DNA of 47,199 nt, filler included, from Catajapyx aquilonaris (lineage: Eukaryota), in the NCBI GenBank assembly GCA_000934665.2. It is 2 parts of 2 records of this genome, joined end to end, with 100 filler letters (N's around TTAATTAATTAA, not from the genome) between each part and the next. Parts side by side here need not be neighbours in the genome. Positions count along the whole stretch, not along the records: positions 23,661 to 47,199 come from JYFJ02005664.1; 1 more part is not named here. The stretch is one strand, 5' to 3'. The notes under the pieces were generated by a model. That model did not search any database. It saw only the letters and a program-made list of their open reading frames with translations, and was not told the DNA's origin. A program made the position numbers and the translations under genes. Position 1 is the first letter of the stretch; each line of letters opens with the position of its first letter. Of the stretch, positions 869-47,072 are shown in pieces.

Positions 869-3024
869 CTGAAGAAATATGTAATAGGAGGGGGATAAGT
901 ACTAACATTAATTATTTTATATCAGCCCAATAATGATCACATTATTTTACAGAGCACAGAGGAAACCGGAACCATTCCAAATAGGGTTGGCTTTGATGCA
1001 CTTACACAAAATCTATCTGGACCGGGTCCACTTACAAAGCGAACCAGGCCCGGGTAGGTGGCGTCACACTGTTACGAACAAATTAGTATTTTAAGAGGTT
1101 AGACAATTCCGCAAACCCGATGATACATAATATTCTTACTGTATTGGAGATCAGAAGGGCGTACGTGGCTCGTAAACTAACGAGTGTAGTGCCCACTGGC
1201 TACACTCGTACTCCGATTTAACTTTGGACTGACGTCACTTATTTACTAATGGCAATGATGTGTACGTCAGCCTGAATTGAAAACATCGGAATACATGATT
1301 CATGCACTGTACTTATGCTTGTTATGCATGCCCGTGCATGCCACTATCCTCGGTGATCAGTTGTGCATACTACCAAAAAACCCTAGTAGCCTACAGATAC
1401 TGGAGTACACTATTGGCAGTAATTTTTTACCCAGCAATACAACAATATTATTATCCAGTAAATACATTGAATAGTAATCATTAAATAAACAATCCAAAGC
1501 CAAAAAGGCTCAACGAAGTAAAATCACTAGAGAGTAAAATAACAGCCATAGATTGAGGTACTCTGGAGTGAAATAACATCAGGCACTAAACTCTGATATA
1601 AAGGAAGGCATCCTAGAGAGTCTGACTGGTATTAAATATGCATGACACCTAATTTCGTTGGACCACTCGAAATGTTTGGTGCATATGGTGCTTCACAGAG
1701 TCTATAGCCTCTATACCGTGAAAAGTGAAAGCTAGGAATGCACGACAATGTTCCTGACAGATGCGATAGGGGATCAGAACGTTGCTAATTTTCAGTTTTC
1801 TTTTCCATGTTCAAAAGGCCACAGAAGGAGCCTCTGCAGCGATTTTTGTGTTAAATTTCTAAGGCTGGCAGAAAAGAGTGTCTTTTCGTCACGTGTTTCT
1901 AATCAACCGGATAGTTAATAATATGCTAGATGTGGTTATATTATTATATAGCCCTTCTGAAGAGTTGCCACACGATCCAAAAAAGGACTGCACAATCATC
2001 TACGTAGTTTATTAACTATCAGGTTGATTAACATATGACTCAAAATGATAATGTGATTTGTCAGCATTAGAAATTACATTTAAAAAATCACTGCAGGCCC
2101 TATCTGTGGCCACTTCTCCTCCATAATATGTGAAAATCATGCGTAGATGTACCGTAAATATAGAGTTGCCAAAGTTGCCAAAGTCACTTGTTTTAATTTT
2201 ATCACGGCAGGTATCGTTCAAATACTTACTGCAACTGCGACTGGCAACTTAGCTGTTCCAAAAGCACATGAAAACATAATCAAAGACAAGCTTGGGCCAA
2301 TTACATCAAGCACCGTTTTCACCAAAATGTTTAGAGGACCATACTAGATTTCCTTCAGATCAGTTTTCAGAAAATTGAAGCGTAATAACTGTCCACGAAA
2401 AGTGTACAGTGTTGTATTGCTTACAGGCTGTGGTCTGGCAGGATCATGACGTAAGGTTGTACCATGGATATCTTGTCGCTGTTGTCGCACACGATGCGCG
2501 ACAGTCGCACCTTACGGATCTCCTCCAGCTGGTCTGAAAAAACTAACGTCATCAATGGGGTCGGGTAAATCATACAACGCAGTGGTCTCAAATCACAAAA
2601 ATGGTTTCGAACAAAACAGCTGACTTGGTGAGCCGCGTGTGATGGAAGATACGTATAGTCCACCAGTTTTGGACAAATGAATTTTCGAGCTTCAAGCAGG
2701 ACATTGCAAGCCATTTTTTTCCGACGGTGAGCATGAGCATGCCGAACTCCCCGCCGTACCTTCTGTGAATGAAGAAGGCCAATCCGGATTCTCGTACCAG
2801 AAGCGGTCGCCATTCCTCAGGTTTCGAAATGTCATGGCGATGATGCAGGCGAAGGACGGGCCCAGCATGCTTCCGTCTGTTGGATGCTCCGAGATGCCTC
2901 CGGACCAAAGATCGATGTCCTCGGGAGACCTACCGGTAGGTTCAGACACACTTGGTAGCTGGTGTGCAGCTGGCACTAGTTTATACTACATCCTGGCACT
3001 ACAGTCATGTAACCACCGAGACAT

Positions 3025-3101
<77 letters not shown>

Positions 3102-3803
3102 TTATTGTATATATCCCTCCCCTACAAACATATAGTTCAAAATGGAGGGACTCTCCATACTACTGTACATTTTCCCTTACAACCGGCCCTTACAACCGGA
3201 AATATATTATCAGAATAAACACGTGACAGGAATTCGGAAATGTATAAACTTAATATATCAAATTATAATATAATATCACAAAAAGGTGATTTCGCTACCA
3301 CTGCTTTAAAGAAATTTTATGACTTAAATGCATCTTCCTTATGAATGTATATACAGGGTGTATCTGAACTCAGTTCCCCGACGTATATGACTGCCTTCCT
3401 AGCCACCAGAGGATCGATTTAAGTATAGGAGTCATTATGTTTGGCCGCCGCATTACGGAGATAATTGCCCGCAAACANCCCCCCCCCCCCGAAATCCTAG
3501 AAAGTGGTTGCCAGACCCAAAAGAATATGCAAAAGTGGTCGAAATCTATGGAAAATTGAACACCGCGTAGAAGAATATATGGTATTGTAAGTATTATGGA
3601 AAAAAATGTACACAACTTAAACGAAAACGAAAATTCGCGCGCTCACGCGCGTGTGAGTGGTTATCAAGGTGGTTATTATATGCAGGGCTTACTGTAGAGC
3701 TTGCTTATAGCCGATGTGCTTTAGGAAGATTCCCCTCTACTTTGTCAGCTACATTCACCTAAGTTTGTGTGACCTTGAACACAAAAATTTCTCCCGCGGA
3801 GGG

Positions 3804-3846
<43 letters not shown>

Positions 3847-6800
3847 TATTTATTTACTTATTTAACCCCGTGATCGAGCTCGGGGGGGGGGGGGGGGGGG
3901 GGNGGGAGGTAGCAAACCCCCTCCGAACAAAAATCCTGCGTACGGCCCTGCCTGGTGCCCATTATGCCATTGGTACATGGCTGTCGGTGGGGGTCGGATT
4001 CACCCTGTATAAACTTCCTAACCGAGGAGACAGGAGGATACTCGCTACGCGGTGAGAAGGTTCGAAATATTATTTTGGCCATAGCTCGAAAAAGCAGCAG
4101 AAATTTGCAATTCTGAGGATACATTCTCACACTTGCTCAATTGAATAGCTCTTATAAAGTGATTTTACGCTGAGAGCCAAGGTTTGGTGAGCCTTATTGC
4201 GTTCTTTGGCTGGCTCAGGATTACCAACTTGGAACAGTAGCGTTGGAAACATTTCAACGGATACGGATTGTCACCATTGTCAACTAAAATAATTATGAAA
4301 CATCACAGAATACAGTAGGCTATTTAATAGCCTACTGTATTCTGTGATGTTTCATAATTATTTTAGTTTTTAGGTGTACTAGTACACCTGTAGTGGTACT
4401 CCTTAGGTATCCTTAGGGACCGTACTCTTTGGTAGGCCTACTTCTTGAATTTTGGCACTCCAATGTACAGTGGAGTGGTTAACCCCTTGATTTATGCTTT
4501 CAATGAGGATCTAGAGACTACCTTCCTCCGCAGTACCAACCTGTAGACCTGGGAATAGCGATGTGCGGTGTGGTTGGGCATGAACTGAGCCAACTGTGAC
4601 CAGGTGTCTGGAGAGGAGAGTCCGCATGCGCGCCTGAATGCCATGAAAGAAGGGACACCATGCTCCCTGGCCCTTTGCATGTTGATGGAGGCCAGGTCCA
4701 TCCCAAATGGCTGGCCCTGCTTCTGGAAGAGGTGGTTGGTCACCTGCTGGGTCACAGAGTCGTCCATGGCCTGGGCCACCTGGTTCACCAGGCCAAGGGT
4801 CAGCTCGTCGCAACGACCAGCCCTGTACAGGTCAAAAGGCTGCCGGAGCATACCGCTCAGGTCGTCCTCGCCTAAAGCATTTAAAAACACATGTAGCTGA
4901 AACACAGTCGTTTCACATCTTCATCATGTCGTTTGGTACGATACGTCGCGTCGCGTCGTGACTTACCGATGAACCGATGCGAGTAGCTCCACCTCTGAAC
5001 CTTGGAGGGAAGCAGTGAGTGTCCGAACCTGAATGCTGCTGTGATGAAGGACGAAGGCACCGTGGCCTCTGTGTCCGGGTCGTACCCCGTATAGTACCCT
5101 GACTGGTCCAGGATTAGTCCGAACCGCTGCATCACCGTCTTCCCTAGGACCATCGGGAGGAACTCGTTGAAGGTCACGTGCTGGGTGACCGCTGCCACGA
5201 TGTGACGGGACTCCTGCACAGGTTTGGACAATATTATTATTGGTGACATACCATACACAACTCCTATCCGGACCTGGCTCTTCTGCAAAGCTAACCGGGT
5301 CAATATCATCAGGAGCAGCATGACGAAAGAATCCAAAATGGCTATTCACATATCACACTTATACCTGGTACAGCCTTTCGTCGTCCCAGTGCGGGTTGAT
5401 CTTGGCAAGTAGTCTGGCGATTCGGTTGTGCTCTCGCATGAATATGACATGCAACACTGCCAGAACCAGCTGCTCGTTCACCCTGTTGTCTCCTGAGAAT
5501 GAGAAATTGAAACATAAGTGGGTGATTATGTGGGTTCAAAGCCAATTTCAACTAACAGTCATCCTTAAACTTTTGGAAAGCGATACTGACTAAATAACAT
5601 GTTAAATTTTATACTGTACGTGTAATACAATGATAAGAAAATGTCAACGGCTCCAGATAATTGCAATAAACAATTGCATCCAACAATATTCAGAAAATTT
5701 GCCGAGTAAAAACCCCCCTATACGCATCCAATTGGGTATGTAAGTTACTTGTAGAAAATAAAAAGCTTATTTTAAAACAATGTTGATGCATGGACTTTTC
5801 TAATATTTAGCTACCCCAAGTATAGGGAGAGGAAACAAAAGCTCCGAGAGTCTACACAATGCATACCCTTAAAAAACAAAAGCGTAAAGTTTTACGCAAA
5901 TGTGAAATATGTTTTATTAGCCTACTGTCTGTCCATTTCAATTTCGCGAATGACGGCATTTCCTGAGTAAAATACTACGTACCGTATCTGAAAGTCAAAT
6001 TGAGTTTTCGAAACAATAAATAAATAAATAATAAATAATAAATATATATAAAAATGTCATCAAGCTGTTCACTTGTACCTGCAAAGAAGCAAAAGATATC
6101 GTCCGATGGCCTGAGACATCCGTCGTCCGGTTGGTCTGTCTTGAGCGGAAGGAGGTCCTTCAGACGGAGGGTCCTGAAGGCGGGCATGGTCTTCAGCTGA
6201 CCTCTCTCGAAGGACCTCAACTGTCTGCCGATGGACTCGCTCGAGCCGTACACAAAGTTAGCGTCCAGGTAAGACGATATCGCGTTCATCTGCACGCGGG
6301 GACCTAAGGTCAGAGTGGCAGTCATCATCATCACCACTACAGCAATGATAACAACACAACAATAATGTCACAAATTTATTTATCACGGGTTTCTGCCAAT
6401 GACATTGAAAAAATTGACCGCTCAACCGGCGGCCATCTTGAATAGAATTGAACATCCGGCGGCCATGACTTACTAGACTACTAGAGGGAAAGAATTGCCG
6501 GAAATTTCGTAAGTTTAAAATGAGGCTTTGCTAGGACATCAAGTTCATAGGGTGATTATAATCAACAAATATTTAACAAATGGTTTTAGATTTCGGATTC
6601 AGCTTGTCTAAATAGATTCCAAGTTCAACGTCCTATAGGGGCCGTCCATAATCCGCGCGGACAAGTGAAGGGGGGGAGAGGGGTTGCACTTTGTCCGCTT
6701 TTGTCCGTACAGGGGGGTAGAAGTCAGTTGTAGTCTTGTACGCGCGGACAATAAACGTCAAATGAATATTAAGGACTAGGCCGTTTTTTAGTCAGACCTC

Positions 6801-9800
6801 TCAAATATACCGTCATGCCTCTGAAAAAAGGAATTTGTGTGTAGATATCAAAAAATAAAAAATACCAATATATTGAAAATAACACTTTCAGTGTGGCGAA
6901 GCGGGGGCAGGGGTCAAGGAGGCCATGTCCGCGCAATTTTTAGGGGGGGGGGAGGTAAATTGTCCGCTTCTGTCCGCAAAGGGGAGGGGGGAGGTACAAA
7001 AGTGAAAAAATCTGTCCGCGCGGATTATGGAAGGCCCCATATACAGGCGGCCACTTCCGGTCTCCAGGGTTCACTCTATCCTTGTTCATGCGGGTAACCG
7101 TATATGATTTAGATTTTGAAATTAGTTTCCTGAAGTATAATTATCACAATAACTATCAAAAGCCCTGAATTCTGCCAAGTACTGTACAAGCAACCACCCA
7201 AGCAAACTGCATTTGAAACGTGATTTGATTTACTATGGCCGCCATGAGAGTAGAGGGAAAAACAAAGGGTTTTGTCGGCTTCAGGATGATGGCTCTGGCG
7301 GCATTGGGTTAAGCGGTCTATTTTCTCTATGCCATTGGTTTCTGCCCCTTCGAATAAGATGTCAGCAATGTGAAAATAACAAACTAGACCTATTCACACT
7401 TGAGGTTTGTCACAATTCGTGCCTTTTTAGAACGCCACTTTGTCCATTATTGAAATAATCCAAGAGCGTCCTTATAGACCACGTCGTGTGCATTGGCTAA
7501 TGGTGTTAATCAATGCATGATGTAGTGTACAATATGCCCTACCGATGCGACAGTCGATTCGTACTCCTGCTTCGGACCTGGCAAAGTTGATGCACTGCTG
7601 CTTGTGCTTCCGGTAGAAGGTATCGTCCGGGGGTATCCTGATGGGCATGCAGTTTGGGTGCGGAGGACGACGGGTACGGGGGTACGCCCCACCCGGACAG
7701 CATTCAGGGTCCTTCTTATTGCGGTCTGAAACGCAGCTCATCAAGCATTACACTCCCCAGTTCGTACAGTAGTTGTCCACATACCCCGCAAGCTCCCACA
7801 ATATGCAAGTGAGTGTAGTACAGTTATACCTTTGGTCTCGACTGTCAAGGTGAGGTCGTGATCAATGATCTGACCCCAGGCGACCAGCATGAGCGTGGCT
7901 GAGTGATCGTGCACGTCCACCTCCTTGTGCACATGAGCAGACACACGTCTCGGGCTAGGCAAGGGACTGCCGTCCACCGAACTCGATCTGGGACTTCCTA
8001 TACCTGCATCGGAGTACATACAACGCAGGGGTCATACACACGGCACCCATGAAAATGGACCCGTTCCGGACCGGGTCCGGACCGGTCTGAACATTGGAGT
8101 AATTTTTAGGATTAGGTAACTTGTTATCTACTCTCCTAGTCTGGTCACCCTGAATAACTAACCTGAACCCCCCCCCCCCCCCACACACACACACACACAC
8201 CCACATCAACATAATTATATAGTAACAGATCAACTACCCACGTGGATAACCTACCCAGAGACCTAATTCTGAAATTATTTCAGATCCGTTAGGCTGGTGA
8301 TAATCCAGTGGCTAAGTCACAGCCGAACTAAGCCCCGCAAGTAAAAAATAGTCAAACAGGGTGAACGTGATTCAAAATTTCCATTTTACGAAGATATGAT
8401 GAAGATATTAACCCACAACTGTGAAATTATTTAATTAGGTATTGAACCATGCTGGACGAAAGGGTGAGTATAAATAAATTTTTTCTGTGCACAATACTAC
8501 GTAGGAGAAATTACGATTTAGTTACGTGCGGCCATGTTCACCCCATCTTACGTGCGGGAAACGAGTTCTGCTAGAGTTTTTAAATGTGTTTTTAAGGAAC
8601 GGCGTACGTAAGCTGTAACAAATATTACCACCACTGGAAAGGTTCACCTTCACCTCCTAAAAATGAACAAGACACTTGCTTTGCAATTTCTTGATTTAAA
8701 AAATAAGTTTGCACACTATGAAAATTTGGTGGTTTCATAGGGTAGCCTTTAACATTTATTTCCTTGCTTACCTATGCCGACACAGGTGAATTATTTTGGT
8801 CTACAGCATGGTAAGCGCTGCCGCAGTGGCATGAGGTCATTGAGAGGCTCATTTTTATGACACATGTTACCTTAAATATTCATTAATGACATTTTTGAAA
8901 TTGTGGCCAAGTTCACCCAGCCGGCCAACGTCACCCCATTTGACGGTACGTGGAAATTAAACGATCCCTCTCTCCATAACGATGTAAGCATGAAGAATTT
9001 CGTTTCATTTTTTATGTAGAAATTACAGGAGAGTGCATCAACCTAAATAGTGTATCGGTTTCGGAACGGGTCCAGCTGTATAATTATGAATGCCCCACGT
9101 GGATGCGAGCGAGAGAGCATACCGTCTCCGTAGGCGACTGGCAGCAAGCGTCTGAAGGGCGTCATGGCAGCCCCCCACTGGGGGTGCTTCAGATTGTTGC
9201 ACCTTCCGTCTAGGGAACGGTGTCGCGCGGGCTTGCCGCAGTCGGACGCAGACGACGTCATCATGCGGTGCGGGCAGTAGGAAGCCACTGGCCCTATCCG
9301 GTCTGTGGCCATCAGGGGAAGTCCTCCCCACGTCGCCTCCTTGCCCAGGCCATATCTGCAGTCCAGTTCAAATAAAAACATCATTATTGTTGTGAATCAC
9401 CCTGAATGACGACAAATATTAATTAGTGATGCAAGTGCACTGACTGCCTGGCGATGATCCTGGCTGTGGTCAGGAGGGCCATTCCTAGCTTGCCCATCTC
9501 TTGCGGTTTCATCCTGTCCGTGGAGCGGGCTGGTCTCACTAGTCCCACCCTCCTGCGGGCCAACTCCCAAGCCTTCGTCACGGACGTCGCTGTTACGCAG
9601 ATGTCGCTGGACCTAATTACCAAAACACAAAGCACTTGAAAAGGGTCTACAAAGTGCGTCACGATGGTTATTGTCTTTATCCAATAAGCATCCCCGTCCT
9701 AGGTCACATACAGTCCGTCGATCACGCATAGTAATTATAAAAAATATATTTATCTGTCAGACACATATTTCCATGGCATGATCCGTCACACCTGCTTTCA

Positions 9801-14910: not shown

Positions 14911-16387
14911 CAGCTCTTGCTGCAGCTGTATAGGTTCGTCCCCACGGGCGCCCACGAGTGAGGAAACTACAAGGTGTGTGTCATGATGATTCAGACAAAC
15001 TTGTAGCGTAAACTCCTCGGTAAAAGAGGATCACTAATTCATGCGCGGGTGTCATTTGGTCACTGCGCTGTGCTCTCCTGACCTATACTGTAGAATGTAG
15101 ATCATCAGCATTCAGAAAAGAGTGGATACAGCATACGACCCTGGACCCTTCCATCCCTTCCGAAACTGCTTGATGGACCTAACGACATGAGGGAACCACA
15201 TGCAGTAGCTGAAACAGGCAAGGTCGCTCGGAGGGACGCCTACCTGCCAGGATATTTGATACCAATTATAATCCCCTTATCTCGGTGACAAAATAATCGG
15301 ACCTTTTATCCAGGAATGGAACTTTATAAGTTGCTTGCTTGTCCATCAGTACCGCTACGGACACCCTGTGTAGTCTGATGCCTAAGTAGCCTACTTGTGG
15401 GGAATCGTTGCGTTGGTGCCTCTGCTGGTGCTGGTCGCATGATCCGGATAAGGCTATGAGGACGCCATAGTTGAAAACCTCCTTATTCTGATGTAACTAA
15501 AATAATATATTAGCGACTGCACTGTAAATGATGCCAGATGTTATATTCTCTCAATATTTTGAGAGCAAGTTGGAATGTTCCTGCACCCCTAGAACTTGTC
15601 GGCGCGGCATTGTTGCCACCCGCCTCATTTATTCGTCCAGCGCAATTTCGACTTGCAAATGAGGATCGGCAGATGGCGGGCGAAGGTCCGAATATGATTC
15701 GCGAGTGGTTGTTAACTACATGCGAAACACGGCGCGGGTGGATTTCGCTTCAACTCTCTCCAGCATCTAGAGCTCGTATACAGCAGAATAAAGATCACTT
15801 TGTCCTGCGGGCATAGATGGGGCTGCATGTCCAATTCGAAATCATAGGCACATGGGTAAGGATTGCCCCCTCCATAATATAACGACATTGACCACACGTT
15901 TCTCCGATACGGTGCGATGTGTAGTTGAATGCATTCTCACGTTTCACATTTCACCTAACTTTATCGGAGCATAAATCTACACAGGGTTTATTCACTGTTT
16001 CACTCTTAGTTTACTTGGGAATGGAATCAGATTTTGCTTCACTTATGGCATGTTTTGAGTAATTTAAACATTGTCTTGGCAATGTTTTCTGCGTCTCGAG
16101 AATCATACTCGTAGCAGCAAAAATGTCGGTCATTGCCTGGAGTGGAATAGACATGCGGCACTTTGATCCAACCTCCCTTTATTAGAGCCGAGTCTTATAA
16201 TGTTATAAATGTCAAATATTTCACATAGCTACTACTTAATCCCTTAGCTTACATAAATTATGATAAAAAGGCGCCAATAATGTATGTGTTGCCACCTTTA
16301 GTAGAAATGACTCATTTAAGGACAGATCTTGGAAACTACATGGAAAACAGTTGTTTGTAAATGACATATAACCGTTATTAACTAATA

Positions 16388-16395
<8 letters not shown>

Positions 16396-16462
<67 letters not shown>

Positions 16463-16809
16463 TAATAATAATAATAATAATAATCCGGGTAGTGCTTGAC
16501 CTCATCTGAGGTATATAGCACGGACCTTTATTTATGTCTCGTACATATATTGGAACCTTTATACGTAACGCCCGGGCCCACGGGCAGGATGACAGGAGGG
16601 GATGTGCAAGGTGCAGTGCAATGTCTTTATGTGGCCATTTTTAGTGAACTCCCCCGGGTGGTTTAATCTGTGGAAATACCACCCGAGACGAAGCCAGAGG
16701 TGACCCTGAACTCTGCACGAGATGAAGGGGGTGTCCCCGGGCTGGGATCGAACCCGGGACCTTAACATCCGTGGGCACATACGTTACCGCAGCACCACTC
16801 CGCCTCCCC
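16396..16809 (-). mobile_element. tRNA-derived SINE (family A), full length, (TTA)n/(TAG)n tail
   Basis: A box TGGTGCTGCGG and B box GGTTCGATCCC; microsatellite tail; near-perfect TSD AACTAATAT(A/C)CTACTA at 16380-16395 and 16810-16825; second copy at 36401. Confidence 0.88.
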
Positions 16810-27848: not shown

Positions 27849-28359
27849 TCAGTTGAAAGTGTCACCAATCAAAATGACGCTGTCAACTACCCGGTTGAAT
27901 TCCTCAACTTTCTGAATCCACCAGGTCTACCTCCCCACAAACTGTCTCAGGCTGGGGTCACCAATCATGCTCCTACGAAATCTCGATCCCCCAAAATTGT
28001 GCAATGGCACGCGGCTGCAGGTGACTGGATTGACACGATTTGTCGTACAAGCTGTGGTACTCACAGGTTGTGCCAAAGGGGAGCGCGTGATGATCCCGCG
28101 CATACCTCTCATCCCGAGTGACTACCCCTTCCAATTCAGACGCCTGCAGTTCCCTGTCAAACTCTGCTTTGCCATTGCAATCAACAAGGCGCAAGGGCAA
28201 TCCCTCGGAGTGGCGGGGATTGATTTGAGGGAGCCATGCTTCTCACATGGCCAGTTTTACGTAGCGTGCTCCAGAGTCAGCTCTAGAAACAACCTCTACA
28301 TTCTCACACCTACCACGAGTATGACCCGAAACATTGTGTACAAAGAGGCGCTCATGTAA
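27849..28359 (+). pseudogene. Helitron Rep/Hel PIF1-type helicase C-terminal fragment
   Basis: [16 protein letters not shown] / [17 protein letters not shown]...RRLQFPV..FAIAINKAQGQS...FSHGQFYVACSRV...NIVYKEAL; one frameshift. Confidence 0.93.
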
Positions 28360-28924: not shown

Positions 28925-29065
28925 GCCAACGACTTCCGACCCTGCGAAAGGTGAGAATTCAGGTCTATACTACGTTTCGGTCAACATATTTGTGCGAGAG
29001 TGCGTTTTCCAACACGAACTTCGTAAAAAATAAGTACAGAAGCAATCTGTTGCAAGAACACCTGC
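28925..29065 (+). pseudogene. hAT C-terminal dimerisation fragment (Buster/SPIN-like)
   Basis: STYLCESAFS...KNKYRSNL. Confidence 0.85.
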
Positions 29066-29909
29066 AAATTGCACAACTGGCTTCAGCTTTAATTCTGAGG
29101 ATGACGCCGGCGACACTTCATTCCTTGGTAACATTAGTCGAAGGAAACCCACCTGTATATTTAATTAACACGTAATACAGGGTTATTTTGAATGTAAAGG
29201 CAAAAGCGTCATTAGCAAATGCGTCAGTGAATTCCTTCACGGAATCTTGTTCAATAATGCTACGTGAGACGCGACAGTGGGTTCAGAGGAAATTAGATGG
29301 CAACTCGGGCATTTATTGTGCATATGCCAAATACTGTTGCAGACACTTTTCATTAATATAATACGTGGCTAAGGATAATAACTGCTCCCTCAGGACATGT
29401 TCAAAACATATTCTTGTGCTTCCGGGAGTCTCGCTCATCTTTTGCAGAGTAAGATCAATACTTGCGTCCGGTGGCAGCGGATACCCACCTAATCACACTA
29501 GTGGGTTGGTCAATATCAAAGTGAGGCATAAATATTTTGTGGGCAAGGAATAACTAACTGCTGTGCCTGAAAATCTTTGGTGGAATAGCCCTCGTGAAAA
29601 GTTGAACGCTACAAAAAGATATCAAGCGTATAACATCATATTAATTGCACAACGATGTTCTTTGCCTTTAAACATTGCAGATGGGCAAGCCAGAACATTA
29701 TGTCAGCCAAGGCCCCCGGATATTTTTCCCGGAGGAAGGAGATCAAGAGATATTGTTGCCACCAACCTACAGCCTTGACAGGTGGTTCATTCTCCTTGCC
29801 TATGTTACATTAAAAACCTCACATACACGAGCATGTTTTCTCAGCTATTGGGACTCTTGCAAGCGCTGATGAAGACTTGATAGATGCTGTGTTAAAAATC
29901 AAGAGCCAA
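29035..29909 (+). repeat. Long direct repeat, copy 1 (~875 bp)
   Basis: Aligns end to end with 32231-33116; roughly 20 substitutions and small indels by eye. Confidence 0.95.
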
Positions 29910-30299
29910 CACGAGGTCGACGTGGTTCATATCGTGCGTCGGATTTGTCTTGGAGGGCACCAACCAGGTCATGGCGCCAACAGGAGGGGGCTTGGGAAGA
30001 AAATACGGGTAGGAATGAGCAGGCCCGGATATTAACACCCCCTGGGTCCTCTTGGGAACAGGCAGGTGTTATCAGCTGTTTTAAGTGCGGAGGCTTAAAT
30101 CATTTTGCTAGGTATTGCCGACAGGGTTATCAGAGCTCGGGAAACGGATCAGGGCCCTCCGGGTTCCATGCATAGGTGCCAGGGGGGGCCGTCAGACGAG
30201 TGGTCAATCAGAAGGAGTCCGAGACTATAGAAAATGAGTCCTCTCCCCTGGTTAGACTGCATATAGGAAACAAAGAGGCCACCTTCCTAATTGACAGAG
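29910..30299 (+). mobile_element. Ty3/gypsy LTR retrotransposon fragment: gag C-terminus with zinc knuckle and start of aspartic protease
   Basis: CFKCGGLNHFARYC (CX2CX4HX4C, 30077-30118); slippery heptamer GGGAAAC at 30139-30145; PLVRLHIGNKEATFLIDRG is a protease N-terminus truncated at the D[ST]G active site. Confidence 0.85.
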
Positions 30300-30776
30300 G
30301 AGAGCAGTGGTTCTGATAGTGAGGTCCTTTCATTGCAAGGGCAAAGTTCACCAGCATCTGAGTTTGAAGAGGTGCCCGGTCCTGGAAAGAAAGACCACAG
30401 GAGGGCTAAAAGGCAGAGCGTCCCCTTCAGCGAAAAGGTTGCTAGTGTGCTAGGGGAAGAAGCAGCAGAGCATTTCCGATCTAGACATCTAGCGTGGAAA
30501 GCAGAGTGGGAGCACCTTAGGGCTCGGCAGAGGGATTGGGACAGAGGTGACCAAGAGAGGGCTGAGGCATTCAAGACTCTAAAGCCTATCATAGGGAAGG
30601 GTAGAGCACAGTCAGTCACCTATCACGGCATCACATCCGCTAAAAGATCCCGTTCGACACCTAGACGAGAGACTAAGAAGAGCCAGAGGGCCAAGAGCTC
30701 AAGCGAGGTCACTTACCCGAGAGTCAACAGGGTTGTCAAGTTTGACGAAGGCTTCTACTATGGCGGATCCCATTGA
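30291..30776 (+). CDS. Uninterrupted ~160-codon orphan ORF (5'-truncated, no ATG), overlapping the nucleocapsid start by 17 nt; probably viral
   Basis: Stop-free frame from the protease junction; acidic/Ser-rich start, charged helical middle, R/K/S-rich end; no recognisable family. Confidence 0.5.
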   Translation: MTEESSGSDSEVLSLQGQSSPASEFEEVPGPGKKDHRRAKRQSVPFSEKVASVLGEEAAEHFRSRHLAWKAEWEHLRARQRDWDRGDQERAEAFKTLKPIIGKGRAQSVTYHGITSAKRSRSTPRRETKKSQRAKSSSEVTYPRVNRVVKFDEGFYYGGSH

Positions 30777-31534
30777 GGCCTTCCTTGATACGGCAGATCT
30801 GGAGAGCATGGATTCCTGGGCAGCTATGGCCAAGGAGCTTTCAGACTACTCCTATCAGGGCTTTGACCCCAAGGTGACAGCCAAGCAGTTTCTGGCCACT
30901 GCTGCTGCAGCCAAAAGAGATGCCAAGAGAGATCTCCAGAGCATCCTGGCTATTTACCTCAAGAGAGGGACAAATGTCCAGAAGATGATCACAAAAGGCT
31001 TCAAAAAGGAGCTGGGAAGACAAAATCACTGACCTGCACACTGTTTATGGCATCAAGGGCCACAGGTCGGGGACAGGGCTTGCCCCAGAGGTCTTAACAA
31101 TAGGGAGAATCGCCACAGTTTATGGCATGGGAGTGTGCGCAGCTCTCCAAGTTCAGGCTGCCACCCCAGTTGTTTCCCATGCTGGCCTCCCTAGGTGCAT
31201 GATGACCCCATGTTTTGCCAGCATCATCCCCACTGAAGCTGATGGGGGTGGCATATGGGACAACTTGGCTTATGCCCACATGATGTGGTCAGCTAACTTT
31301 GACAGGGTGATCAATAAGACGAAGCCCAACTGGGTGGAAGACATGGTGGCAGTGGCCAACTTCTGCACTCTTGCCAGAGATGGCAGTATCTACACGAGGG
31401 CAAGGAAGATAGCAGCCCTGGAGAAATGGGGCATCATTGTGGTGGCCAAGGATGGAGGGGCCACAATTGCGGATGCCTATCGCCAGGCCATCCTAGATGC
31501 GGCCAAACTAGCAAAGGCCAAGATGGGCATTTAG
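30760..31534 (+). pseudogene. N: Endogenous viral element: Phenuiviridae-like (phlebovirus/tenuivirus family) nucleocapsid N gene, ~257 aa, single +1 frameshift near 30990-31020
   Basis: Colinear motifs YSYQGFDP, RDLQSILAIYLKRGTN..KM, YGI, LTIGRIA, LPRCMMTPCFASIIP, AHMMWSANFDRVIN and RKIAALEKWGII match the phlebovirus N pattern FAYQGFD / RGN..KM / LTLSRVA / YPR.MMHPSFA / AH.L...FSRVIN. Confidence 0.9.
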
Positions 31535-31595
31535 ACCATCTCAGGAGAGGGAGAAAGGGAGAGAAAAGAGAGAGTCAGATAACGAAAGGAGATAA

Positions 31596-32230
31596 ATGAT
31601 GGACGGTCTGGTGGCAATACTAACACTGGTGGCGATATACACGAGCCCCAGTGCCACTGCGCCCGACGCCGCAGTGATAAGGGAGGGCCTTGCCTTCATA
31701 CCAGGTGGGGACTTCCTCCTCTCCGGCAACCATTGGACCATCGTGACAGATGTCCCCTAACAGCACTATGACGGCTTGATGGGTAGCCTGTAGCGGGACT
31801 ACCAGAAATTTAATGCTTTTCTTTCAGGTGCCAGGAGGGACTTGAGGGGGAACGAGACGGACAACGAGTTTGCTACTTTAATTCAGTACCTTAAGGTCAA
31901 GGAAGGAAGCCACCTGCTTCAGGAAATCAATTGGCTTGTCCATCGCATACAGGAACTGAAGGGGGTTTTCGCGGTTCCTAAGAGGACTAGAGAAAAACGT
32001 GCGTTGATTAATGCGGGTGGCAGTGCACTTAAATGGCTTTTTGGCACTTTGGATAATGACGACATGAACATAATTAATAAGAAATTAGAGTCCATGGGGA
32101 ACCGGAATAACAAGCTATTACATTTGGTCAAAGAACAAGTGAGTGTTTTGGATTCAGTCAATGCACGGGAAGTTAGGACCAAGAAACTCTTGGGAAAATT
32201 AGTTAATGTCACAGGTGATCTGAGTAGGCC
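31596..32230 (+). pseudogene. env: Errantivirus/baculovirus F-type envelope (env) N-terminal fragment
   Basis: One frame with two stops: signal peptide MMDGLVAILTLVAIY, GLAF...WTIV, furin site REKR followed by fusion peptide ALINAGGSALKWLFGTLDNDD and a heptad region; truncated by repeat copy 2. Confidence 0.85.
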
Positions 32231-33116
32231 TACAGAAGCAATCTGTTGCAAGAACACCTCCAAATTGCACAACTGGCTTAAGCTTTAATTCTGAGGATGA
32301 CGACGGCGACACTTCATTCCTTGGTAACATTAGTCGAAGGAAACCCACCTGTATATTTAATTAACACGTAATACAGGGTTATTTTGAATGTAAAGGCAAA
32401 AGCGTCATTAGCAAATGCGTCAGTGAATTCCTTCACGGAATCCTGTTCAATAATGCTACGTGAGACGCGACAGTGGGTTCAGAGGAAATTAGATGGCAAC
32501 TCGGGCATTTATTGTACATAATTATGCCAAATACTGTTGCAGATACTTTTCAATATATGCCAATATAATACGTGGCTAAGGATAATAACTGCTCCCTCAG
32601 GTCATGTTCAAAACATATTCTTGTGCTTCCGGGAGTCTCGCTCATCTTCTGCAGAGTAAGATCAATACTTGCGTCCGGTGGCAGCGGATACCCACCTAAT
32701 CACACTAGTGGGTTGGTCAATATCCAAGTGAGGCATAAATATTTTGTGGGCAAGGAATAACTAATTGCTGTGCTTGAAATTCTTTGGAGGAATAGCCCTC
32801 GTGAAAAGTTGAACGCTACAAAAAAATATCAAGCGTATAACATCATATTAATTGCACAACAATGTTCTTTGCCTTTAAACATAGTAGATGGGCAAGCCAG
32901 AACATTATGTCAGCCAAGGCCCCCGGATATTTTTCCCGGAGGAAGGAGATCAAGAGATATTGTTGCCACCAACCTACAGCCTTGACAGGTGGTTCATTCT
33001 CCTTGCCTATGTTACATTAAAAACCTCACATACACGAGCATGTTTTCTCAGCTATTGGGACTCTTGCAAGTGCAGATGAAGACTTGATAGATGCTGTGTT
33101 AAAAATCAAGAGCCAA
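32231..33116 (+). repeat. Long direct repeat, copy 2 (~886 bp)
   Basis: Aligns with 29035-29909. Confidence 0.95.
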
Positions 33117-34009: not shown

Positions 34010-34572
34010 GTTAACAGATGACGCATTCTTGGGGCAGAAAGTTTTAATTGACCTTTTTATCCAGTGTAACACCACAATCCCATCGAGTGCTGCTGTCGAG
34101 AGATTGTTCTCGATGGGAAAAGACATCCTCAAGCCCAAAAGAGCCACGCTCTCGGACACAACTTTTGAAAGATTGGTTTTTATGAGGGGAAACCATCATC
34201 ATTGGTTAATAAATGAATGATGGAGTCATGTATGCTAATGCTAACCAATAAACTTTTTTGGTGTTTGAATCATTTTGTTTAATACTTTTTGTATGGAACA
34301 GGTAATAGCGTAACTGAATTAGGCGTATGTTGTAGCAGTGCTCTCTAGTTAACTTTAGCCCTCTTTAGCACTCTAGGTCTGTTTTTATTTTTTAAAGGGT
34401 CCTAGATAAAAAAGGTTAAATTCATAAAATAAAAGCTAACTTTAGTTGTTAACGTTAACTTCCATTAATTTTTCTAGCCCTTTAACGTTTATCATTTAAT
34501 GAAGTTAAATTTTTTAGTTACTTGATTGACGGTTAATGTAGTTAAATTTTCGGTTAACTGTGCCCACCACTG
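34010..34572 (+). mobile_element. 3' end of a hAT transposon (dimerisation domain, 3' region, TIR)
   Basis: NTTIPSSAAVERLFS...PKRATLSD.TFE; AATAAA; GTTAAC-rich subterminal repeats; ends TGCCCACCACTG. Confidence 0.85.
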
Positions 34573-43473: not shown

Positions 43474-43775
43474 GACCGAAGCAGGTTGGCATAGTGGATA
43501 AGGCGTCCGACTGCTAATCGGAAGGTCCTGGGTTCGAATCCCGGTGCCGGCAACTCTAACCGTGGTTTTCTGTGGTTTCCCACGGTTTCTCCAGGAGAAT
43601 TCCGGAGTTGTTTCCTAATAAACAGGCCACAGCCGCCCCCTTCCTTTCCTATCCTCTCCCAAAGAGCAATAAGTAAAAATGCAAGCAAAGAGTTCCAGAC
43701 AAAACAAAAATTCCCCCCTAAAGAGCCGCCGGCTGATAACGGGGTATGAATTATTATTAATTATTAATTATTATT
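43474..43775 (+). mobile_element. tRNA-derived SINE (family C)
   Basis: A box TGGCATAGTGG, anticodon-like arm TCCGA-CTGCTAA-TCGGA, B box GGTTCGAATCCC, ATT-rich tail, exact 15-bp TSD AATTGTATAAATTGG at 43459-43473 and 43776-43790. Confidence 0.9.
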
Positions 43776-46072: not shown

Positions 46073-46858
46073 TTAAGGGCTACCAAAATCACAATTACGC
46101 GAAGACGCACTTTTTCCAGCCACGACTGGATCTCCAGACTTACGACCTGGGCGGATGGAGGGGTAATACTTCAAATTACCATAGTCATTGAAATAGGACC
46201 ATTCAAGGTATTCCACATGATACGGATTTTTCTTACGGGCAGCAGCACACTCATCTGCATACATAGCTGGCGTGTAAATGGCCTTGTTACGACACTGCCT
46301 TTCTATTGCACTATGCATAGAGTCGCACTCCATTTGAGTGCGACCCTTCACAAGATATTTCTGGGTAATAGTAACCCCATGCATCATGGCAGTTTGCAGC
46401 AACGCGTTGCTAAGTGTGCAGTTGCGATTTTGAAAATTGCATCCATCGCTGTACAGAATTATGGCATCTCCCAAGTTGGTGTGATCAACGATGAACTTGC
46501 ACAATATTGTAGCGAATTCGTTGGCAGTGATGTGCCCTTCACCCTCGTGCCAAAGATAACAATACCCCTCCCTTGTTTTCAGGTCATACATGGTAAAGTT
46601 ATGCACGATCAACTTCATTTTGTAGTACAACGCAGAGGCATTCAGTTTAGGTGAGAGTAACACCGACTGCATATCTACAGTGAACACCTTCACTTTGGTG
46701 TCTTCAATGTTTTTGTCACTCTCTTTCTGTGCACATGCTTCTTCTTTCAGCTTAATATGAACCCTGTACTCCTCTTCACCGATGTTCCCTGCTTCATGGG
46801 CGACGCAAGTATCGCATTGATCTTTCCTGTCACAGAAGGATACAGAAATATTAATTAT
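46073..46858 (-). pseudogene. Transposase catalytic-core fragment (Sola1-like DDD)
   Basis: RKDQCDTC, VDMQSVLLSP, LYYKMKL..HNFT, CYLWHEGEG..ANE, YSDGC.FQNRN, KGRTQMECDSMHSAIE; both ends truncated. Confidence 0.8.
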
Positions 46859-47072
46859 GATCTAGTAAGTGAGAAGCATTAAAGGGACACTCCACTCAAA
46901 ATACAAGTTGGATTCTAAAAATCGGGCAAAAAATACTGATTTCGAGGGTATAAGCAGTTTTCCTGAGAGACGAACGGTAAGGCCAGGACGAGCCGTCAAA
47001 GTTCGGACATTCGAATCTGGCGCAAAAGAGCAGCGCCTCTTCCGGGTATGGGCAGAAATAGTCGGAAATATT

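What the first reader, a model, noticed from the sequence alone, without database searches (positions are those of the whole stretch)
29910..32230. Virus-retrotransposon chimera: a viral segment replaces pol in an env-bearing gypsy element
Seen, all on +: gag CCHC knuckle, then protease cut at its catalytic motif (FLIDRG, ~30296), then 1.24 kb of virus-like sequence, a purine-rich linker, and an F-type env with signal peptide, REKR furin site and fusion peptide. RT, RNase H and integrase are absent. Established: LTR-retrotransposon reverse transcriptases can template-switch onto RNA-virus RNA and produce chimeric viral DNA in arthropods. Inference: this is a two-junction recombinant in native gag-(pol)-env order, preserving both crossover points. 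It could alternatively belong to a non-autonomous retroelement lineage that carries a bunyaviral N as cargo.
Basis: partly seen in the sequence, partly recalled or inferred. Interest (0 to 1): 0.9.

Follow-up and report, generated by a model that had tools for sequence, protein, structure and literature searches.

The report
Virus fossil flanked by retrotransposon fragments
A dead copy of an RNA virus's coat-protein gene lies in an arthropod genome between same-direction fragments of jumping genes; this is a known way for viral genes to enter animal DNA, so it is a tidy example and not a new kind of element.

Summary
The pieces are real and all on the + strand:
- a gag zinc knuckle;
- a protease-like motif, seen by eye only;
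- a 161-codon open frame of unknown origin (X);
- a full-length phenuivirus-like nucleocapsid gene (N) with one frameshift;
- a 32-nt all-purine run;
- the first 210 codons of an F-type env gene.

No RT, RNase H or integrase domain was found anywhere in the window.

1. The 2321 bp lie exactly between two 0.88-kb direct repeats (96.6% identical). These are not LTRs but duplicated older host and transposon DNA.
2. Only 775 nt are demonstrably viral, not 1.24 kb.
3. In DNA contigs of four runs of one sample, gag/PR + X + N form one contig at single-copy depth. The env part has about 3x depth and other genomic copies that part from the window at 31573 and 32224. So this is not a family carrying N as cargo, and a common parent for gag/PR and env is not shown.

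Best reading (about 0.5): one LTR-less chimeric reverse transcript, made by template switching and captured at a chromosome break with a 0.88-kb target duplication. Main rival: stepwise mosaic in a transposon-rich region. It is a new member of a known kind, of moderate interest.

The parts
29035..29909 (.). Left copy of the 0.88-kb direct repeat R: duplicated older host/transposon DNA, not an LTR
   Evidence: blastn gives 29035-29909 against 32231-33116, 96.6% over 886 columns. The ends are TACAG...GCCAA, not TG...CA. A hAT_C alignment (E 0.0027) covers 28927-29067 and so crosses the border at 29035.
29910..30307 (+). LTR-retroelement gag C-terminus / pol N-terminus fragment. CCHC knuckle at 30074-30124, in-frame TAG at 30173-30175 (possibly the natural gag stop), protease-like ...FLIDRGEQ ending at 30307.
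   Evidence: zf-CCHC E 2.5e-4. Read-through translation P0019. No protease family hit. Part of one contig, 29880-31615, at single-copy depth in 4 of 4 runs.
30291..30776 (+). X: a 161-codon open frame with no Met and no recognisable relative. Its stop overlaps the N start.
   Evidence: ORF list. Only 12 of 20000 mononucleotide shuffles are as open. No hit in Pfam, the atlas, the word-index search or PDB. The single-sequence AF2 model is one long helix (residues 46-96) in low-confidence coil, mean pLDDT 68, pTM 0.28.
30760..31534 (+). Endogenous phenuivirus-like nucleocapsid (N) gene, full length from ATG 30760 to TAG 31532-31534. It is broken by one frameshift in the overlap 30989-31032.
   Evidence: Tenui_N on both frames. 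phmmer gave 17 hits at E 0.001 or better among 1.84 billion representatives, the best at 33% identity and E 2.9e-9. 12 of the 13 hits scanned are Tenui_N. Both pieces align end to end with full-length N proteins. The family profile hits phlebovirus N structures at E 1e-37. Lowest CpG o/e in the window.
31535..31572 (+). Linker of unassigned origin, with an all-purine run at 31543-31574. The N-to-env-element junction lies somewhere in it.
   Evidence: Sequence, purine run. Another genomic copy of the env element stops matching the window to the left of 31573 (loose end in 4 of 4 runs).
31573..32224 (+). 5' part of an F-type (Baculo_F / errantivirus-like) env gene with 23 nt of its upstream sequence. 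ATG at 31596, in-frame stops at 31758-31760 and 31791-31793, REKR at 31989-32000. Cut off after about 210 codons.
   Evidence: Baculo_F E 8.7e-6 and 5.6e-6. In the atlas, 16 of 30 hits are Baculo_F clusters of arthropods, score 0.94. About 3x depth, variant contigs, and loose ends at 31573 and 32224.
32225..32230 (.). Six bases between the end of env homology and the right repeat; possible junction filler
   Evidence: The loose end 'behind 32224' in 4 of 4 runs against the repeat start at 32231. Sequence.
32231..33116 (.). Right copy of direct repeat R. It starts in the middle of the hAT C-terminal domain motif.

Best explanation
The 2321 bp are one LTR-less composite DNA that began as a chimeric reverse transcript. 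A retroelement reverse transcriptase copied part of an env-bearing element RNA. It then switched onto the N messenger (or antigenome) of a deeply divergent phenuivirus-like RNA virus. It then switched onto at least one further RNA: X, and a gag/protease region of a retroelement that need not be the same family as the env donor. The incomplete cDNA has no LTR ends, so it was not inserted by integrase. It was captured by end joining at a chromosome break, and repair duplicated 0.88 kb of the target (layout A-R-insert-R-B). It has since decayed neutrally. Shown: the identity, order and strand of the pieces, the flanking duplication and the single-copy status. Inferred: the template switches, insertion as one piece, and capture by end joining.
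For: - N comes from an RNA virus with no DNA stage, so a cellular reverse transcriptase must have copied it (established knowledge). N is full length and typed.
- Retroelement coding fragments lie on both sides, on the same strand, in gag-then-env order. For three pieces, this orientation and order by chance is about 1 in 24 (my arithmetic).
- The N stop codon is at most 38 nt from sequence shared with other copies of the env element.
- The composite fills exactly the space between two copies of a 0.88-kb stretch. This stretch is not a repeat unit of its own, because a hAT_C alignment crosses its left border. The stretch has only about 2x depth in the genome's reads. This fits one insertion and duplication event.
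- 29880-31615 is one contig at flank-like depth in 4 of 4 runs: 19.5/34.7/30.9/27.9, against 18.6-41.6 for the flanks.
- Precedent, passages read: same-strand Ty3/gypsy and Pao fragments next to EVEs, explained by copy choice (bioRxiv 10.1101/127498). Internal retroelement ORFs replaced by foreign RNA, chimeras of more than two templates, and 2-26 bp of de novo sequence at junctions (PMC5131818).
Against: - No parental element was available, so no microhomology could be mapped at any junction.
- gag/PR has no relative of 90% identity or more in the contigs while env has several. The simple 'one element, two switches' version is therefore unsupported.
- X is unidentified, so the left neighbour of N is not shown to be retroelement sequence.
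- The R-insert-R layout would also arise from two complementary truncated copies of an older duplicated segment, with the insert built up stepwise.
- Among the contig pieces listed, the right junction (32230/32231) is not bridged; 39 pieces were not shown.
- All four runs are one sample, probably the source of the assembly, so they are not independent support.
- The protease call is by eye only.
Confidence: 0.5

Rival explanations
1. Stepwise mosaic. A segment A-R-B was duplicated locally. Separate insertions (a gag/PR-bearing element, an N-bearing cDNA, an env-bearing element) and deletions then accumulated between the two copies. The overlap 'R' is only what the two truncations left. Co-orientation reflects the strand bias of a transposon graveyard or piRNA-cluster-like region.
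For: - The surroundings hold transposon fragments: a Pif1 2B-domain (helitron-like) fragment at 27916-28356, hAT_C fragments, and DUF7869.
- gag/PR and env differ in copy number.
- X is unrelated to anything.
- env has two in-frame stops in 211 codons while N has none in about 258, a hint of different ages.
Against: - It needs a duplication, at least three insertions and several deletions within 2.3 kb, all in the time it took R to diverge by 3.4%.
- No LTR, RT or integrase remnant of any of the supposed full insertions is left.
- All pieces share strand and retroelement order.
- R occurs only about twice in the reads, so it is not a dispersed family that would land twice by chance.
Confidence: 0.3
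2. Exactly the first reader's model: one env-bearing gypsy-type element RNA served as both outer templates. Two switches replaced most of pol with viral RNA, so the viral part includes X.
For: - Native gag - (pol) - env order on one strand.
- X-N could be one viral RNA: X ends 17 nt inside the N start, and the N frame is open for 55 codons upstream of its ATG.
- One relative (P0011, 393 aa) has a roughly 165-residue S/K/E-rich extension before its Tenui_N domain.
Against: - Other copies of the env element exist at 93-99% identity, yet nothing at 90% or more is laid on gag/PR.
- X has no similarity to P0011.
- In the one related S-like contig fetched, N starts at base 149 of 1447, not after a 465-nt upstream frame.
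- No phenuivirus segment-end motif lies at either border. These motifs were recalled from memory. The only 1-mismatch matches fall inside the protease-like motif, at roughly the rate I calculate for chance (about 0.9 per motif per strand).
- From recall, not tested: Gag of insect errantiviruses lacks a CCHC knuckle.
Confidence: 0.12
3. A member of a non-autonomous LTR retroelement family that carries N as cargo and is mobilised in trans.
For: gag and env remnants with pol missing. The same genome is reported (unchecked scan note e1-7500842) to hold a defective gypsy element carrying a host gene fragment.
Against: - The flanking repeats are not LTRs: no TG...CA ends, no primer-binding site or polypurine tract at the borders, and a hAT domain crosses the left border.
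- env is cut mid-gene at 32224.
- The gag/PR-X-N block is single copy, with no second contig at 90% identity or more.
Confidence: 0.03
4. Assembly artefact: the tandem R copies and the insert were joined wrongly.
For: The window contains Ns. The I-to-R junction at 32230/32231 is not among the listed contig pieces.
Against: - Depths fit A(1x)-R-I(1x)-R-B(1x) with R at 1.3-2.5x across the four runs.
- Both the R-to-insert and R-to-B branches are present at equal depth in 4 of 4 runs.
- One contig runs from R through gag/PR, X, N and the linker, and 42 nt into the env homology.
Confidence: 0.05

Closest known systems
EVEs next to same-strand Ty3/gypsy and Pao LTR-retrotransposon fragments in Aedes (Whitfield et al. 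2017, bioRxiv 10.1101/127498; passages read)
   Same: A non-retroviral RNA-virus gene adjacent to co-oriented LTR-retroelement sequence. Copy-choice recombination during reverse transcription is the proposed origin.
   Different: Here both neighbours are coding fragments in gag...env order with no LTR. The unit lies between 0.88-kb duplicated target DNA. The host is an unnamed arthropod whose whole genome was not on hand. Membership of a piRNA cluster was not tested.
LTR-mediated retroposition of cellular mRNAs (Tan et al. 2016, PMC5131818; passages read)
   Same: Part of the internal retroelement ORFs is replaced by foreign RNA-derived sequence. More than two switches and several donor RNAs can join. 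Short de novo sequence can sit at junctions.
   Different: Those retrocopies keep both LTRs, as needed for integrase, and show mapped microsimilarity. Here the LTRs are absent, microsimilarity could not be mapped, and the cargo is a viral gene.
Anakin: Pao retroelements that captured a chuvirus glycoprotein (Dezordi et al. 2020, PMC7642597; passages read)
   Same: A gene of a negative-strand RNA virus inside retroelement context in an arthropod genome.
   Different: Anakin is a multi-copy family with LTRs and full gag-pol, and the viral gene serves as its env. Here the unit is single copy, dead and LTR-less, and the cargo is a nucleocapsid gene beside an unrelated F-type env.
Episomal viral DNA (vDNA) made by retrotransposon RT in infected insects (Poirier et al. 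2018, PMC5857290; search listing and start of abstract only) and the LCMV-IAP recombinant (Geuking et al. 2009; seen only as a citation)
   Same: Reverse transcription of RNA-virus RNA by retroelement RT, giving virus-retroelement DNA.
   Different: Those are somatic or cell-culture products. This is a germline, fixed-looking, decayed copy.
Phenuiviridae nucleocapsid proteins (Pfam PF05733; solved structures such as 3lyf and 4csf, matched by the family profile)
   Same: Full-length alignment with N proteins of 243-326 aa and a domain hit above the Pfam cut-off on the C-terminal piece.
   Different: At most 33% identity to any of 1.84 billion representatives. One frameshift. CpG o/e 0.18, the lowest in the window.

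Membership tests
Template-switch chimera of an LTR retroelement with foreign RNA (LTR-mediated retroposition / EVE capture) | Cargo derived from RNA (here, a gene of an RNA virus with no DNA stage) | tested here: met
   Tenui_N on both frames. 12 of 13 scanned relatives are Tenui_N. Full-length alignment. The profile hits phlebovirus N structures at 1e-37.
Template-switch chimera of an LTR retroelement with foreign RNA (LTR-mediated retroposition / EVE capture) | Retroelement internal sequence on both sides, same strand, with part of the internal ORFs missing | tested here: met
   zf-CCHC on the left and Baculo_F env on the right, both on +. No RT, RNase H or integrase. However, an unidentified 465 nt (X) lies between gag/PR and N.
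Template-switch chimera of an LTR retroelement with foreign RNA (LTR-mediated retroposition / EVE capture) | Both flanks come from one and the same element | tested here: inconclusive
   Contigs of 4 runs of one sample: env has about 3x depth and variant copies; gag/PR is at single-copy depth with no second contig at 90% or more. This leans against the feature, but the other env copies could be fragments lacking gag.
Template-switch chimera of an LTR retroelement with foreign RNA (LTR-mediated retroposition / EVE capture) | Microsimilarity at the switch points | not testable with these tools
   No parental element or virus sequence is on hand. Only 30 letters of another env copy were seen.
Template-switch chimera of an LTR retroelement with foreign RNA (LTR-mediated retroposition / EVE capture) | Two LTRs and a short integrase-type target duplication | tested here: not met
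   The flanking repeats are 875/886-nt duplicated older DNA, without TG...CA ends and without a primer-binding site or polypurine tract at the borders.
Env-bearing Ty3/gypsy element (errantivirus-like) | LTR - gag - pol (PR, RT, RNase H, IN) - env - LTR | tested here: not met
   Only a gag knuckle, a protease-like motif and the first 210 env codons are present. No pol domains and no LTRs.
Env-bearing Ty3/gypsy element (errantivirus-like) | F-type (Baculo_F) env with a basic cleavage site followed by a fusion peptide | tested here: met
   Baculo_F 25.0-25.7 bits against a cut-off of 24.1. REKR followed by ALINAGGSALKWLFGTLD. Atlas Baculo_F clusters of arthropods at 0.94. That this motif is the fusion peptide is recalled, not tested.
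Phenuiviridae-type nucleocapsid (PF05733) | Domain match above the curated cut-off over the whole protein | tested here: met
   The C-terminal piece scores 33.1 bits (cut-off 25). The N-terminal piece scores 23.6 bits, below the cut-off on its own. Together they cover profile positions 23-223 of 224.
Phenuiviridae-type nucleocapsid (PF05733) | Intact reading frame | tested here: not met
   One frameshift within 30989-31032.
Non-autonomous LTR retroelement family with cargo (Bs1-like, Anakin-like) | Several genomic copies sharing the same junctions, bounded by LTRs | tested here: not met
   A single contig at single-copy depth across gag/PR-X-N in 4 of 4 runs. No LTRs.

The most novel reading that the evidence does not exclude
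The insert is a fossil of a single 'vDNA' molecule. One reverse-transcription run stitched together four or more RNAs: an env-element RNA, the complete N message of an unknown, deep-branching phenuivirus-like virus with extreme CpG suppression, an unknown message X, and a gag/protease RNA, possibly from a second retroelement family. The LTR-less product entered the germline by break repair that duplicated 0.88 kb of target. All crossover points would then be preserved, and integrase-independent endogenisation would be documented.
Probability: 0.3. Interest if true: 0.55.

Novelty: new member of a known kind. Interest (0 to 1): 0.35.

Why it matters
It adds a non-mosquito arthropod example in which a complete nucleocapsid gene of a very divergent phenuivirus-like virus lies between co-oriented retroelement fragments. 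That supports the general view that LTR-retroelement reverse transcriptases are the route by which RNA-virus genes enter arthropod germlines. Two details deserve follow-up once the whole genome is on hand. First, LTRs are absent and there is a 0.88-kb target duplication, which points to capture by break repair, not integrase. Second, the N gene has a CpG o/e of 0.18, the lowest in the window. Neither detail is a new principle.

Tried and rejected
- Whole-genome copy count: no genome is held for this window.
- Word-index protein searches with N, X and env (longer proteins for env): no hit.
- Atlas search with X: no usable hit.
- PDB sequence search with X: only E 0.35.
- Single-sequence AF2 model of X: one helix, nothing to search.
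One relative's own metagenome contig was fetched instead. It shows N at 149-1054 of 1447 nt, with no X-like upstream frame ending at the N start.
- X against the N-terminal extension of P0011: no similarity.
- Phenuivirus segment-end motifs (recalled): none at the borders. The matches are near the rate I calculate for chance.
- Dinucleotide signature distances between the pieces are within noise. GC differs weakly: gag/PR 0.54 against env 0.48.
- RNA evidence: no RNA holder is listed for the stretch, so expression and piRNA production are untested.
- Earlier scan notes: none for this place or these sequences.
- R as an LTR: rejected.
- A PBS-like CA|TGGCGCC at 29969-29977 was considered. It lies only about 100 nt before the knuckle, and no second copy of a putative LTR end shows in the contigs. 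It is treated as chance.
- The ODV-E18 hit at 16239-16640(-) is a poly-I/poly-S low-complexity stretch.
- Minus-strand ORFs inside the insert: no family.
- Rfam: only one tRNA-like hit, far from the insert.
- Literature: three searches found the general phenomenon but no description of this locus. Supplements were not consulted.
Full report
**What is there**

Stop-to-stop ORFs and a three-frame reading of 29900-32240 show six features, all on the + strand.
- A gag C-terminus with one CCHC knuckle at 30074-30124 (zf-CCHC, E 2.5e-4).
- An in-frame TAG at 30173-30175. About 25 codons later comes ...PLVRLHIGNKEATFLIDRGEQ, ending at 30307.
- A 161-codon open frame X (30291-30776) with no Met.
- A nucleocapsid gene N: ATG at 30760 in one frame up to 31032, continuing in another frame from 30989 to TAG at 31532-31534.
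- A 38-nt linker holding a 32-nt all-purine run at 31543-31574.
- An env start at 31596 with in-frame stops at 31758 and 31791, REKR at 31989-32000 followed by ALINAGGSALKWLFGTLD, broken off at about 32224.

Pfam supports three of these.
- The knuckle.
- N: Tenui_N at E 4.6e-5 (23.6 bits, below the cut-off of 25) on one frame and E 5.7e-8 (33.1 bits, above it) on the other. Together they cover profile positions 23-223 of 224.
- env: Baculo_F at 25.0-25.7 bits against a cut-off of 24.1. In the atlas, 16 of 30 hits are Baculo_F clusters of arthropods at 0.94.

The protease is a motif seen by eye only. Pfam reports only zf-CCHC for the read-through piece, even at E up to 5. No RT, RNase H or integrase family was found in the insert or anywhere else in the window.

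**N is a complete, very divergent phenuivirus-like gene**

- phmmer with the 181-residue C-terminal piece found 17 proteins at E 0.001 or better among 1,835,955,588 representatives. The best has E 2.9e-9 and 33% identity.
- Of the 13 best hits scanned, 12 carry Tenui_N.
- Eight clusters were looked up. They come from contigs of 1.0-1.6 kb. One is named 'nucleocapsid [Tibet bird virus 2]', and a second carries only a stray mark for a name.
- Both window pieces align from the first to the last residue of these 243-326-aa proteins. The gene is therefore whole apart from one frameshift in 30989-31032.
- A profile of this set hits phlebovirus N structures at 1e-37.
- N has the lowest CpG o/e of the window: 0.15-0.18, against a median of 0.70 over 775-nt windows taken every 25 nt. 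TpG and CpA are in excess. I cannot say whether this is a viral trait or decay after integration.

**X is unexplained**

- Its openness is not chance: 12 of 20000 shuffles are as open.
- It matches nothing in Pfam, the atlas, the word-index search or PDB.
- It models as one long helix in low-confidence coil.
- In the one related S-like contig fetched, N starts at base 149 of 1447. A 465-nt upstream frame is therefore not a shared layout.
- One relative, P0011, has a roughly 165-residue S/K/E-rich N-terminal extension, but it has no similarity to X.
- So only 775 nt, not 1.24 kb, are demonstrably viral.

**The frame around it**

The finding's coordinates are exactly the DNA between two direct repeats R, at 29035-29909 and 32231-33116, 96.6% identical over 886 columns. 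R is not an LTR, for three reasons.
- Its ends are TACAG...GCCAA.
- There is no primer-binding site or polypurine tract at the inner borders.
- A hAT C-terminal domain alignment (E 0.0027) runs across its left border, so the right copy starts in mid-domain.

The layout is A-R-insert-R-B.

**Read evidence**

This comes: Logan contigs of four DNA runs of one sample, probably the assembly's own source. No RNA run was listed.
- One contig covers 29880-31615 in 4 of 4 runs at depth 19.5/34.7/30.9/27.9, like the flanks at 18.6-41.6. No other contig of 90% identity or more is laid on gag/PR, X or N, so this block is single copy.
- R has 1.3-2.5x that depth across the four runs.
- From 31573 to 32224 the summed depth rises to about 3x. 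Variant contigs appear, for example 10 differences in 155 nt.
- Loose ends in all four runs show another genomic copy that matches the window only to the right of 31573, and one that matches only to the left of 32224.
- The env piece therefore belongs to a low-copy family still present elsewhere. Six bases (32225-32230) separate it from R.
- The I-to-R junction itself is not among the listed pieces; 39 pieces were not shown.

**Reading**

An RNA-virus gene in DNA needs a reverse transcriptase. Its position between co-oriented retroelement fragments is the pattern ascribed to copy choice in Aedes (10.1101/127498, passages). It is also the pattern of LTR-mediated retroposition, where internal ORFs are replaced, several donor RNAs can be joined, and short de novo sequence occurs at junctions (PMC5131818, passages).

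I therefore favour (about 0.5) a single chimeric cDNA captured without LTRs at a break, with a 0.88-kb target duplication.

It is not excluded either, because the other env copies may lack gag.

A stepwise mosaic between two truncated copies of a duplicated segment remains a serious rival (about 0.3). In that case 'R' would merely be the overlap of two truncations.

The cargo-carrying family idea is rejected. An assembly artefact is unlikely.

**Novelty**

The phenomenon is in print. None of the three searches turned up this locus, or a phenuivirus N between gag and F-type env fragments. It is a new member of a known kind.

Noticed in passing
window 30760-31534: The N gene has the lowest CpG o/e of the whole 47-kb window (0.15-0.18 against a median of 0.70). 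TpA is 0.53 and TpG/CpA are 1.45/1.54. The neighbouring gag/PR and env pieces are ordinary (0.61, 0.66). Whether this is a viral trait or targeted decay is unexplained.
   Followed up: partly
window 2424-9396 (-): A multi-exon animal haem peroxidase gene. Eight ORF pieces hit An_peroxidase, together covering profile positions 2-530.
   Followed up: no
window 27916-28356 (+): A Pif1 2B-domain fragment (E 2.7e-11), probably a helitron-type helicase remnant, just upstream of the hAT-like stretch.
   Followed up: no
window 28927-29067 (+) and 34083-34193 (+): Two weak hAT C-terminal dimerisation-domain remnants (E 0.0027 and 0.002), one on each side of the R-insert-R unit.
   Followed up: partly
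window 29969-29988 (+): CA followed by TGGCGCCAAC..., which resembles an LTR end plus a tRNA-Lys-type primer-binding site (resemblance recalled). It lies about 60 nt inside the insert and only about 100 nt before the gag knuckle. Judged probably chance.
   Followed up: partly
window 43481-43552 (+): A tRNA-like sequence: Rfam tRNA at 45 bits; ARAGORN calls Ser(GCT), although 72 nt is short for a serine tRNA (length expectation recalled). Possibly a SINE head or pseudogene.
   Followed up: no
window 46076-46861 (-): A 262-codon open frame with a weak DUF7869 match (E 3.3e-5, below the cut-off), probably a transposon protein remnant.
   Followed up: no
window 16239-16640 (-): A weak ODV-E18 match that is only a poly-isoleucine/poly-serine low-complexity run; not viral.
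   Followed up: yes
protein P0011: A 393-aa Tenui_N protein whose domain starts at residue 165, after an S/K/E-rich extension. It shows that some relatives of this N carry long N-terminal tails.
   Followed up: partly
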